Shown in pieces: positions 1 to 1,151 of a stretch of DNA of 1,151 bases. This stretch comes from Naegleria gruberi (Eukaryota), in assembly GCA_000004985.1 (NCBI GenBank), contig GG739527.1, one strand, 5' to 3'. Every line of letters begins with the position of its first letter. Position 1 is the first letter of the stretch. Under the pieces are notes generated by a model. It searched no databases and had not been told where the DNA came from. It saw only the letters and a program-made list of their open reading frames with translations. The translations under genes were made by a program, and so were the position numbers.

Positions 1-267
1 TTTGTGTACAACACATTGGGCAGGTTGAATGTAGCTATGGCTGATGTGGAAGGAAGCAAAGGGAGAACTCTCCTCTGGTGGTACTGATGAAGGTTGTTAG
101 CAGGGTGGTGATGAAATCATGGGTGATTGTTGTTTGTTGTTTTTTTTGTTGAATATTTAACGGTCATAACATTCAACTTTCAGCGGTAACATATTTGTTG
201 GTGGTGAAAAAACTCAAATGCAGTGGCCAGGATTTGTTGGGACGATCTTACAGTGAGGTTGGGTGGG
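1..267 (-). other. Non-coding 3' flank, covering the 3' UTR and downstream intergenic DNA of the minus-strand gene.
   Basis: All three minus-strand frames have stops here: plus-strand TTA, CTA or TCA at 35, 97, 117, 157, 164, 173, 180, 214 and 248. There is no plus ORF longer than 17 aa apart from the overlapping 223..411 artefact. No tRNA-like or rRNA-like signatures are present. Confidence 0.7.
125..200 (-). terminator. Putative mRNA 3'-end formation and polyadenylation region. On the mRNA strand it has A-rich positioning-like tracts and AT-rich elements.
   Basis: The reverse complement of 121..200 reads ...caacaaatatgttaccgctgaaagttgaatgttatgaccgttaaatattcaacaaaaaaaacaacaaacaacaatcaccc. 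It contains 'aaatatgtta' and 'ttaaatatt' (AT-rich, efficiency-element-like but not a canonical TATATA) and an A8 run followed by (CAA)n-like A-rich sequence. It lies about 70-145 nt downstream of the stop. Yeast-type poly(A) signals are degenerate, so this is only suggestive. Confidence 0.3.
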
Positions 268-1151
268 TCAAAAAGTGAGGGTTGTAATTATGACAATCTT
301 CCTATTGTTATTCGAAAGTTGTTGAGCCAATCCATTAAAAAGAAGTGGAAAGTGAATGTTTGGAAGTTGAACATTCACCCAAGTAAATCCAGTAAATCCA
401 TTTCCATTTGAATTCATTGAGAAATGATTAATAGACGCATTATTGAATTGTTGTAAATGTGGTTGAACAATTAGGGATTGATTTTGGGGATGTCGCACCA
501 CTTGACCATTATTAATCGGTACATGATTCATCACTCTTTCATTTTGATTATTATTTCTTATAGGATTTATGTTTGCTTGCTGATTATTTCTAATAACATT
601 TTCATTCTGTTGTGGTTGATAGATAGTTTGATTTCTTGGTGGAGTATTATTCTGTTGTGTCTGTCGTGGTGGAGTTACATTCATCCTATTTCGTGGTGGA
701 CTATTAGTCTGTATCTGTCGTGTCTGTTGTGTCTGTTGTGGTGCTTGTGGACCTATTGGTGGTTGTGGTTGACCATTCACTTGAGCCTCCTCATTTTCAG
801 AGCCATTCTCTTGTCCATTTTCAACTCCAAATCTTTCCTGCAACTCCCTTGCTTTTCTATTAATTTTCAAATAGAAATTCTCCATCAAGTATGGAACATA
901 ATGTTGCCTGCAATGTTTCCAACTTTTTTCCTGAATATTTTCAATGAACTTCAACACCAAATTATCAATGAATGGAATGAGCTGGTTCTCGGTAATTAAA
1001 CGAGGAAGAGAAGGTTCTGAGAAAACTCTACGATTCTCCTCAGCAATGAAACATTTTACAATGTGAATTTTCTGGTATAGAGTAATGTGATGGTCGCAGT
1101 GGATATCGTTATAGTGACAGGATGGACATCGGCTAGAGGAGAGATGAGGTA
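268..1151 (-). CDS. 5'-truncated protein-coding gene. N-terminus lies beyond the window. Its product has a Cys/His cluster, a structured region and a long Q/N/P-rich prion-like C-terminal region. Likely a fungal nuclear regulatory protein of unknown identity.
   Basis: I checked in-frame plus-strand triplets for TTA, CTA and TCA, which would be minus-strand stops. There are none from 1149 down to the TGA stop at 270..268, which is the plus-strand 'tca' at 268..270. That gives at least 294 open codons in an AT-rich sequence where stops are frequent. The visible N-terminal translation is ...PHLSSSRCPSCHYNDIHCDHHITLYQKIHIVKCFIAEENRRVFSEPSLPRLITENQLIPFIDNLVLKFIENIQEKSWKHCRQHYVPYLMENFYLKINRKARELQERFG..., which is compositionally complex and protein-like. 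The track's 'M' at 958..960 is a TTG (plus-strand 'caa'), so it is not the true start. The first in-frame ATG in the window is at 885..883, but the frame stays open for 89 codons upstream of it. The other two minus frames over 1..267 carry several stops. Confidence 0.82.
   Translation of the reverse strand, partial: PHLSSSRCPSCHYNDIHCDHHITLYQKIHIVKCFIAEENRRVFSEPSLPRLITENQLIPFIDNLVLKFIENIQEKSWKHCRQHYVPYLMENFYLKINRKARELQERFGVENGQENGSENEEAQVNGQPQPPIGPQAPQQTQQTRQIQTNSPPRNRMNVTPPRQTQQNNTPPRNQTIYQPQQNENVIRNNQQANINPIRNNNQNERVMNHVPINNGQVVRHPQNQSLIVQPHLQQFNNASINHFSMNSNGNGFTGFTWVNVQLPNIHFPLLFNGLAQQLSNNNRKIVIITTLTF
634..702 (-). repeat. Three degenerate in-frame tandem units with a 27-30 nt period, each carrying an (S/T)PPR motif: NSPPRNRMNV, TPPRQTQQNN, TPPRNQTIYQ.
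   Basis: The plus strand has 'tcgtggtgga' at 691..700 and 664..673, and 'tcttggtgga' at 634..643. The spacings are 27 and 30 nt. The reverse complements encode S-P-P-R, T-P-P-R and T-P-P-R in the gene's frame. Confidence 0.7.
721..738 (-). repeat. Perfect 9-bp tandem duplication (tgtctgttg x2) encoding QQTQQT. A related copy, 'tctgttgtgtctgtcgtgg', lies at 651..669.
   Basis: The sequence 'tgtctgttgtgtctgttg' is read directly at 721..738. A similar 'tctgttgtgtctgtcgtgg' sits at 651..669. This is an in-frame microsatellite-like repeat inside the coding region. Confidence 0.75.
1051..1128 (-). other. Cys/His cluster (C-x2-C-x6-C-x-HH ... H ... C). Probably the C-terminal part of a zinc-binding module, such as the final CPxC pair of a RING, PHD or SP-RING-type finger, with the rest beyond the window.
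   Basis: Translation reads R-C-P-S-C-H-Y-N-D-I-H-C-D-H-H-I-T-L-Y-Q-K-I-H-I-V-K-C. That is four Cys and six His within 27 residues. 'CPxC' is a common terminal ligand pair in treble-clef and RING-type fingers. The module is cut by the window edge, so it cannot be classified. Confidence 0.35.

What the first reader, a model, noticed from the sequence alone, without database searches (positions are those of the whole stretch)
1051..1128. Truncated Cys/His metal-binding cluster (RCPSCHYNDIHCDHH...H...C) at the window edge.
There are four Cys and six His in 27 residues, with C-x2-C-x6-C spacing followed by HH. 'CPxC' is typical of the last ligand pair of RING, PHD and SP-RING fingers. The residues after it do not fit C2H2 or Zn2Cys6 spacing. 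If this is the end of a RING or PHD finger, the architecture would be an N-terminal Zn finger, then a helical region, then a Q/N-rich prion-like tail carrying CDK sites. That would suggest a chromatin, transcription or ubiquitin/SUMO-pathway regulator. I cannot assign a family.
Basis: partly seen in the sequence, partly recalled or inferred. Interest (0 to 1): 0.5.

Follow-up and report, generated by a model that had tools for sequence, protein, structure and literature searches.

The report
Small N-terminal zinc-knuckle-like motif, Naegleria orphan
The Cys/His cluster is real, but it is most likely a small self-contained zinc-binding motif at the start of an uncharacterised protein found only in the amoeba Naegleria gruberi, not the cut-off end of a RING or PHD finger.

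Summary
The window is a complete 1151-bp Naegleria gruberi contig. Its minus strand carries a 293-codon frame that is open from the contig edge (1149) to a stop at 270-268. The cluster is residues 8-33 of that frame. It holds 4 Cys and 5 His, not 6, and this density is not chance (p about 1.5e-4).

Exhaustive searches found one relative, the N. gruberi paralogue NAEGRDRAFT_65926 (35% identity over about 100 residues, E 2.6e-5). In the paralogue the cluster begins 12 residues after Met1, and those 12 residues contain no Cys or His. Only R-C-P-x-C-x2-N-x-I-x-C-x-H and one further His/Cys position are shared. The other four Cys/His of the window are not conserved.

No Pfam family matches. The only solved protein resembling the motif is zinc finger 1 of NDP52/CALCOCO2 (CPICKADDICDH), at a non-significant E of 0.03-0.19.

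The best reading is a compact CCCH zinc knuckle ahead of a helical module and a Q/N-rich tail. Zinc binding is inferred, not shown, and both structure predictions were uninformative. Interest is low to moderate.

The parts
268..1149 (-). Open reading frame of 293 codons plus the stop (270-268), running off the contig edge at its 5' end. This is the N. gruberi gene NAEGRDRAFT_55023.
   Evidence: Translation. 100% match to P0001, 'predicted protein [Naegleria gruberi]', whose longest contig is 1151 bp. ORF openness P about 6e-9.
1051..1128 (-). The Cys/His cluster as reported, ORF residues 8-33: CPSCHYNDIHCDHHITLYQKIHIVKC, with 4 Cys and 5 His.
1090..1131 (-). Conserved core motif R7-C8-P9-x-C11-x2-N14-x-I16-x-C18-x-H20. 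This is the proposed four-ligand CCCH zinc knuckle.
   Evidence: These positions are invariant between the window ORF and paralogue P0002. The same ligand order occurs in NDP52 ZF1 with a loop one residue shorter (not significant).
1063..1065 (-). His29, the only other position that keeps a ligand-type residue (Cys34 in the paralogue). It is a possible alternative fourth ligand.
   Evidence: Alignment.
1030..1050 (-). Invariant F34-x-A-E-E-N-R40 block immediately after the cluster.
835..1080 (-). Predicted helical region (residues 24-105) homologous to residues 29-103 of the paralogue.
   Evidence: AlphaFold2 secondary structure gives H24-42, H50-70 and H77-105, but mean pLDDT is only 52. Homology is shown.
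883..885 (-). Met89, the first in-frame ATG and the start of the deposited gene model P0001. That model therefore omits the cluster and most of the conserved module.
271..831 (-). Q/N/P-rich low-complexity tail (residues 107-293; 35% Q+N, 9.6% P). It has no counterpart in the paralogue.
634..702 (-). Three [ST]-P-P-R motifs (SPPR150, TPPR159, TPPR169) in a loose repeat. They fit the minimal proline-directed kinase consensus.
1133..1151 (-). Pyrimidine-rich 19 nt ending in TAG (TACCTCATCTCTCCTCTAG) at the extreme edge. This is a possible 3' splice acceptor, so residues 1-6 may be intronic.
   Evidence: Sequence and 79% pyrimidine content. This is inference only.

Best explanation
The cluster is a compact, essentially complete zinc-knuckle-like motif near the N-terminus of a lineage-specific Naegleria gruberi protein. 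The proposed mechanism is inferred. One Zn2+ is held by Cys8 and Cys11 on an R-C-P-x-C knuckle, and by Cys18 and His20 six residues later, just before the first predicted helix. His29/Cys is a possible alternative fourth ligand. The metal would pin the N-terminal tail onto a helical module of about 100 residues (knuckle, F-x-AEENR, three helices). That module is the only part shared with the paralogue NAEGRDRAFT_65926, and it probably serves as a protein- or nucleic-acid-interaction domain. A disordered Q/N/P-rich tail with three [ST]PPR motifs follows. The other Cys/His of the window (H12, H17, H21, C33) are not family features. What is shown: the ORF, the homology, the position of the motif next to the paralogue's predicted start, and which residues are conserved. 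What is inferred: zinc binding, the ligand set and the function.
For: The ORF is real. The window is a whole N. gruberi contig. A phmmer search of 1.84 billion representatives gave one hit, P0002, with E 2.6e-5, aligning query 4-101 to target 9-103. Pairwise BLASTP gave 35% identity and E 7e-12. In P0002 the motif is C13-C16-C23-H25, preceded only by MSSGVKKTDSNR. C8, C11, C18 and H20 are all invariant, and the block 5-40 is 53% identical against 26% for residues 41-106. The most conserved part of the family is therefore the motif plus AEENR. The Cys/His density and the C-x2-C-x5-7-C-x-H pattern are far above shuffle expectation. The only PDB sequence resembling the motif is NDP52/CALCOCO2 ZF1, CPICKADDI-CDH, which has the same ligand order. 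[quoted passage not shown]
Against: There are only two sequences, so conservation of four residues is weak statistics. AlphaFold2 gave pLDDT below 50 for the motif in both proteins. No Pfam model matched. The NDP52 match is not significant (E 0.031 for the profile, 0.19 for the motif alone). A six-residue loop between the ligand pairs is very short. The ligand set is ambiguous: P0002 also fits C-x2-C-x13-H-x3-C, although the window has Tyr25 at that His position. The paralogue's start codon is a prediction that I could not verify at the DNA level. Metal binding was not measured.
Confidence: 0.5

Rival explanations
1. One reading: the cluster is the C-terminal ligand pair or pairs of a larger cross-brace finger (RING, PHD or SP-RING), and the first half lies beyond the contig edge.
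For: CPxC is common as the last pair of RING fingers (established knowledge). The frame runs off the contig with no start codon. P0002 gives a sub-threshold Pfam hit to the RNF220 family (E 0.067, 13.4 bits against a cutoff of 26). An upstream exon cannot be excluded, because there is a possible splice acceptor at 1151-1133.
Against: The paralogue's model has only 12 residues before the CPxC, with no Cys or His. Conserved ligand-type residues follow the CPxC (C18, H20). No RING, PHD or MIZ Pfam match appears at E<=10 for either protein. Similarity between the two proteins starts at S5/S10, right before the motif.
Confidence: 0.1
2. There is no metal site. The Cys/His richness is a compositional quirk of a fast-evolving orphan protein, and the conserved residues serve ordinary packing or disulfide/redox roles.
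For: Five of the nine Cys/His in the window are not identical in the paralogue. No family or confident structure supports a finger. The NDP52 resemblance is not significant.
Against: All four residues of a canonical ligand pattern (CPxC ... CxH) are invariant at 35% overall identity. The paralogue keeps a similar Cys/His density, 8 in 28 residues. The pattern is very unlikely by shuffling.
Confidence: 0.25
3. It is a classical beta-beta-alpha C2HC finger (UBZ4- or ZNF512-like), with ligands C-x2-C ... H-x3-C on the first helix rather than C18/H20.
For: P0002 fits C13-x2-C16-x13-H30-x3-C34, exactly as the ZNF512 C2HC finger 2ctd_A aligns (E 0.47). The window has H29-x3-C33 one helical turn later.
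Against: The His position is Tyr25 in the window, and the window's C33 is Met in the paralogue. The two proteins would therefore need ligand pairs shifted by four residues. No Pfam C2H2, C2HC or UBZ model matched. The E-value is not significant.
Confidence: 0.1
4. It is a SWIM-like finger (C-x-C-xn-C-x-H), as found in MuDR/FAR1 transposase-derived proteins.
For: The C-x-H second pair preceded by [G/D]-I-x resembles the SWIM ending. The signature CxCxnCxH is quoted in PMC6130280. The rest of the resemblance is from my own recall.
Against: The first pair is C-x2-C, not C-x-C. Pfam SWIM (PF04434) gave no hit at E<=10. The paralogue has too few upstream residues for the SWIM beta-strands.
Confidence: 0.05

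Closest known systems
NDP52/CALCOCO2 zinc finger 1 (PDB 5aaq), the 'unconventional dynamic zinc finger'
   Same: It has the same ligand types and order in a very short span. NDP52 has K-C-P-I-C-x2-D-D-I-C-D-H (C-x2-C-x5-C-x-H). Here the motif is R-C-P-x-C-x2-N-x-I-x-C-x-H (C-x2-C-x6-C-x-H), followed in both by L-x-Q. It is the only PDB sequence retrieved by the family profile.
   Different: The E-values are 0.031 to 0.19, which are not significant. The loop is one residue longer here. In NDP52 the finger is C-terminal and is followed by a C2H2 ubiquitin-binding finger. Here the motif is N-terminal and is followed by a helical module with no second finger. SKICH and coiled-coil domains are absent. 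The resemblance is most likely convergent.
RING / PHD / SP-RING cross-brace fingers
   Same: They share a CPxC pair and Cys/His richness.
   Different: Those fingers need eight ligands (or a MIZ pattern) over 40-60 residues. The paralogue offers only 12 ligand-free residues upstream, and no Pfam match was found.
SWIM zinc finger (CxCxnCxH)
   Same: It has a C-x-H second ligand pair at the start of a helix and four ligands in total.
   Different: The first pair here is C-x2-C. There is no PF04434 match and no room for the preceding strands.
C2HC fingers (ZNF512 2ctd; UBZ4-type)
   Same: The paralogue has identical C-x2-C-x13-H-x3-C spacing.
   Different: The window protein has Tyr at the His position. 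The match is not significant (E 0.47).

Membership tests
RING finger (C3HC4 / C3H2C3) | Eight Cys/His ligands in cross-brace spacing C-x2-C-x9-39-C-x1-3-H-x2-3-[CH]-x2-C-x4-48-C-x2-C, so six ligands lie upstream of the last CxxC. | tested here: not met
   In the paralogue, the only residues before the CPxC are MSSGVKKTDSNR, with no Cys or His. The window shows one non-conserved His in the 7 residues available. Caveat: this relies on a gene-model start.
RING finger (C3HC4 / C3H2C3) | A match to Pfam RING-type profile HMMs. | tested here: not met
   There were no Pfam hits at E<=10 for the window ORF or its N-terminal peptide. P0002 gave only sub-threshold PAS_13, XPD_arch and RNF220 hits.
PHD finger (C4HC3) | C4-H-C3 ligands over about 50-60 residues, and a Pfam PHD match. 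| tested here: not met
   The evidence is the same as for RING: no upstream ligands in the paralogue and no Pfam hit.
SP-RING / MIZ finger | C-x-H-x(n)-C-x2-C type single-zinc RING-like domain with a zf-MIZ profile match. | tested here: not met
   There was no Pfam hit, and the upstream residues are lacking in the paralogue.
SWIM finger | The signature C-x-C-xn-C-x-H (PMC6130280) and a PF04434 match. | tested here: not met
   The first pair is C-x2-C in both proteins. There was no Pfam hit at E<=10.
NDP52/CALCOCO ZF1-like knuckle | Significant sequence similarity to the CALCOCO C-terminal zinc-finger region. | tested here: inconclusive
   It was the top or only PDB hit, but with E 0.031 (profile A1), 0.13 (P0002) and 0.19 (motif profile A2). 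The window sequence alone did not retrieve it.
NDP52/CALCOCO ZF1-like knuckle | The domain context: SKICH, then coiled coil, then a C-terminal ZF1-ZF2 tandem. | tested here: not met
   The motif is N-terminal. There is no second finger and no SKICH or CALCOCO Pfam hits.
C2H2 / C2HC beta-beta-alpha finger | C-x2-4-C-x12-13-H-x3-5-[HC], with all four ligands conserved. | tested here: not met
   P0002 fits this pattern, but the window has Tyr25 at the His position. There was no Pfam hit.
Any zinc finger | Stoichiometric Zn2+ binding by the proposed ligands. | not testable with these tools
   This needs metal analysis of recombinant protein. The AlphaFold2 models were too poor to judge geometry.
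PPR repeat protein | Tandem 35-residue helix-turn-helix repeats matching Pfam PPR models. | tested here: not met
   A single PPR-like stretch (residues 31-59) matched the designer protein 5iww_D only through three copies of one repeat, each with i-E about 60. It is not conserved in P0002, and there was no Pfam PPR hit.

The most novel reading that the evidence does not exclude
R-C-P-x-C-x2-N-x-I-x-C-x-H plus F-x-AEENR defines a previously undescribed N-terminal CCCH zinc-knuckle/helical domain. It would be confined to Naegleria gruberi (two paralogues) and resemble in form the 'dynamic' ZF1 of NDP52. It would be fused in one copy to a prion-like Q/N tail and in the other to an unrelated C-terminal beta-rich domain.
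Probability: 0.3. Interest if true: 0.35.

Novelty: new variant of a known kind. Interest (0 to 1): 0.22.

Why it matters
If zinc binding were confirmed, this would add a very compact CCCH spacing (C-x2-C-x6-C-x-H) to the list of minimal zinc knuckles, and would give a first handle on two N. gruberi orphan genes. In practical terms, the analysis shows that the deposited model NAEGRDRAFT_55023 is 5'-truncated and omits its only conserved domain. It does not bear on any major open question. No function in chromatin, ubiquitin or SUMO pathways can be claimed.

Tried and rejected
- **Pfam scans.** I scanned the full ORF, both N-terminal peptides and P0002. Nothing reached threshold.
- **PDB sequence searches.** I used the single sequences and two profiles. 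Only the non-significant NDP52 and ZNF512 hits came up, plus a repeat-inflated PPR hit that I reject.
- **Homologue searches.** I ran word-indexed searches with the window N-terminus, the two-sequence profile and P0002, and exhaustive phmmer. The family has two members only.
- **Upstream DNA.** The look-up of encoding contigs found nothing on record for P0002, P0001 or the 293-aa edge ORF. The viral and metagenome scans with the profile found no relatives. A degenerate DNA pattern encoding CPSCHYNDIHCDHH gave no match.
- **Structure prediction.** The AlphaFold2 models had mean pLDDT 52 for the window N-terminus with the two-sequence alignment and 38 for P0002.
- **Paralogue C-terminal domain.** tblastn of P0002 against the whole window found no such domain downstream of the stop.
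- **Other features.** Rfam and tRNA scans gave nothing real. The plus-strand ORFs have no Pfam hits and are antisense shadows.
- **Literature.** A search for the locus tags and accessions returned zero papers.

Full report
**What the window is.** The 1151 bases are an entire small contig of the Naegleria gruberi genome. The deposited protein P0001 (EFC35234 / XP_002667978, NAEGRDRAFT_55023, 205 aa, 'predicted protein') matches at 100% identity, and its only contig is 1151 bp long. The gene lies on the minus strand. The frame starting at base 1149 is open for 293 codons, down to a stop at 270-268. An open stretch this long has P of about 6e-9 for this base composition, and the longest open stretch in 2000 shuffles was 193 codons. 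The first in-frame ATG is codon 89 (window 885-883). The deposited model starts there, so it omits the Cys/His cluster altogether.

**Checking the observation.** Window 1128..1051 (minus strand) encodes CPSCHYNDIHCDHHITLYQKIHIVKC, preceded by Arg. The count is 4 Cys and 5 His. The density is not chance. Nine or more Cys/His in 26 residues arose in 0.015% of shuffles of the ORF. The pattern C-x2-C-x5-7-C-x-H arose in 0.0085% of shuffles.

**Relatives.** An exhaustive phmmer search with residues 1-106 against 1.84 billion cluster representatives returned one protein. This is P0002, N. gruberi NAEGRDRAFT_65926 (D2VAP3), 373 aa, on a 537-kb scaffold. The database-wide E-value is 2.6e-5. Pairwise comparison gives 35% identity and E 7e-12, aligning residues 4-101 of the window ORF to residues 9-103 of P0002. 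Three word-indexed searches found nothing more: the window N-terminus, a two-sequence profile, and P0002 itself. Scans of viral and metagenome contigs also found no relatives. This is therefore a two-member family so far seen only in N. gruberi. Only the N-terminal 100 residues or so are shared. The window encodes nothing like the paralogue's C-terminal domain.

**What the paralogue says about the cluster.**
- P0002 begins MSSGVKKTDSNR-CPIC-QRNGIV-C-T-H-GISLHQKCCLPRMFCAEENR. The motif therefore sits 12 residues from the predicted N-terminus, and those 12 residues have no Cys or His.
- The invariant positions are S5, R7, C8, P9, C11, N14, I16, C18, H20, I22, L24, Q26, K27, F34 and A36-E-E-N-R40.
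- This block (residues 5-40) is 53% identical, against 26% for residues 41-106. It is the best-conserved part of the family.
- Of the nine Cys/His in the window's cluster, four are invariant (C8, C11, C18, H20) and one keeps ligand character (H29 against Cys).
- The other four are not conserved: H12 is Gln, H17 is Val, H21 is Gly and C33 is Met in the paralogue.
- The paralogue has its own extra His30, Cys33 and Cys40.

**Interpretation.** The conserved set C-x2-C-x6-C-x-H supplies four ligands of the usual kind in 13 residues. The first pair lies on a CPxC knuckle, and the second lies just before the first predicted helix (helix 24-42). I therefore read it as a small, self-contained CCCH zinc knuckle capping a helical module. 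I do not read it as the tail of a larger cross-brace finger. That test is met by proxy in the paralogue.

No Pfam model (RING, PHD, MIZ, SWIM, C2H2, UBZ or PPR) matches either protein at E<=10. The only exceptions are sub-threshold PAS_13, XPD_arch and RNF220 hits for P0002. Zinc binding itself is inferred, not shown.

**Closest known thing.** A profile of the two sequences retrieved one zinc-finger entry from the PDB: 5aaq, the C-terminal zinc fingers of NDP52/CALCOCO2 (E 0.031). P0002 alone gave E 0.13, and the motif-only profile gave E 0.19. The alignment places CPICKADDI-CDH-TLEQQ of NDP52 ZF1 on CPxCxxNxIxCxH-xxLxQK. The ligand order is the same, and the NDP52 loop is one residue shorter. 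[quoted passage not shown] The E-values are not significant and the domain context is entirely different. This is a resemblance in form, not demonstrated membership.

**Alternatives considered.**
- **C2HC finger.** P0002 also fits C-x2-C-x13-H-x3-C, as does the ZNF512 C2HC finger 2ctd (E 0.47). The window has Tyr25 at that His position, so this ligand set is not conserved.
- **SWIM.** The SWIM signature is CxCxnCxH (PMC6130280). It shares the C-x-H ending but not the first pair, and the Pfam model does not match.
- **PPR repeat.** Residues 31-59 resemble a PLS-type PPR repeat in a designer protein (5iww). The whole-sequence E of 0.00099 comes from one query stretch hitting three identical repeats, each with i-E about 60. 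The resemblance is absent from the paralogue, so I treat it as chance.

**Structure prediction.** AlphaFold2 on the window N-terminus with the two-sequence alignment gave mean pLDDT 52, and below 50 over the motif. P0002 alone gave mean pLDDT 38. Structure therefore neither supports nor contradicts the proposal.

**Limits.**
- I could not obtain sequence upstream of the contig edge, nor the paralogue's genomic DNA.
- The paralogue's start is a gene-model prediction.
- The last 19 nt at the window edge (minus strand TACCTCATCTCTCCTCTAG) are 79% pyrimidine and end in TAG. An intron acceptor there, and hence an upstream exon, cannot be excluded.
- With only two sequences the conservation argument is thin.

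**Rest of the architecture.** After the helical module the protein has a 187-residue tail with 35% Q+N and 9.6% Pro. The tail carries SPPR150, TPPR159 and TPPR169. It says nothing about function.

**Verdict.** The Cys/His cluster is real and non-random. It is most likely a minimal N-terminal zinc knuckle of an N. gruberi-specific orphan family (confidence about 0.5). The RING, PHD and SP-RING tail reading is unlikely (about 0.1). This is a modest finding: a new variant of a familiar kind of motif, plus a correction to a gene model.

Noticed in passing
window 883-1149 (minus strand): The deposited gene model NAEGRDRAFT_55023 (P0001) starts at Met89. The 88 codons upstream are open to the contig edge and are homologous to the N-terminus of NAEGRDRAFT_65926. 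The model is therefore 5'-truncated and lacks its only conserved domain.
   Followed up: yes
window 1133-1151 (minus strand): The extreme edge reads TACCTCATCTCTCCTCTAG, which is 79% pyrimidine and ends in TAG. It looks like a 3' splice acceptor. If it is used, residues 1-6 (PHLSSS) are intronic and an upstream exon exists.
   Followed up: partly
window 634-702 (minus strand): Three [ST]PPR motifs (SPPR, TPPR, TPPR) lie 9-10 residues apart within a loose repeat in the Q/N/P-rich tail. Short 9-bp tandem repeats lie nearby at 710-769.
   Followed up: partly
window 973-1059 (minus strand; ORF residues 31-59): VKCFIAEENRRVFSEPSLPRLITENQLIP resembles one PLS-type pentatricopeptide repeat of the designer protein 5iww_D. 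The whole-sequence E of 0.00099 comes only from hitting three identical repeats. The resemblance is not conserved in the paralogue and there is no Pfam PPR hit, so I judge it chance.
   Followed up: yes
P0002 residues 13-34 (paralogue, not in window): The paralogue fits C-x2-C-x13-H-x3-C, like the ZNF512 C2HC finger 2ctd (E 0.47). It also gives a sub-threshold Pfam hit to RNF220 (E 0.067, 13.4 bits against a cutoff of 26). The window protein has Tyr at the His position.
   Followed up: partly
P0002 residues ~290-360 (paralogue, not in window): The paralogue has a C-terminal region predicted as beta-strands plus a helix (E303-312, E315-323, H325-333, E338-342, E349-357; pLDDT about 50-57). The window protein has no counterpart and there is no Pfam match.
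   Followed up: no
window 478-999 (+ strand): A 173-aa ORF on the opposite strand, rich in Leu, Ile and Trp, is the antisense shadow of the Q/N-rich coding region. It has no Pfam hit.
   Followed up: yes
window 121-151 and 140-334: A T/G-rich low-complexity run (TTGTTGT repeats) lies downstream of the stop, probably in the 3' UTR. The only Rfam match (HOXA11-AS1_6, 20 bits against a gathering score of 50) is chance, and there are no tRNAs.
   Followed up: yes
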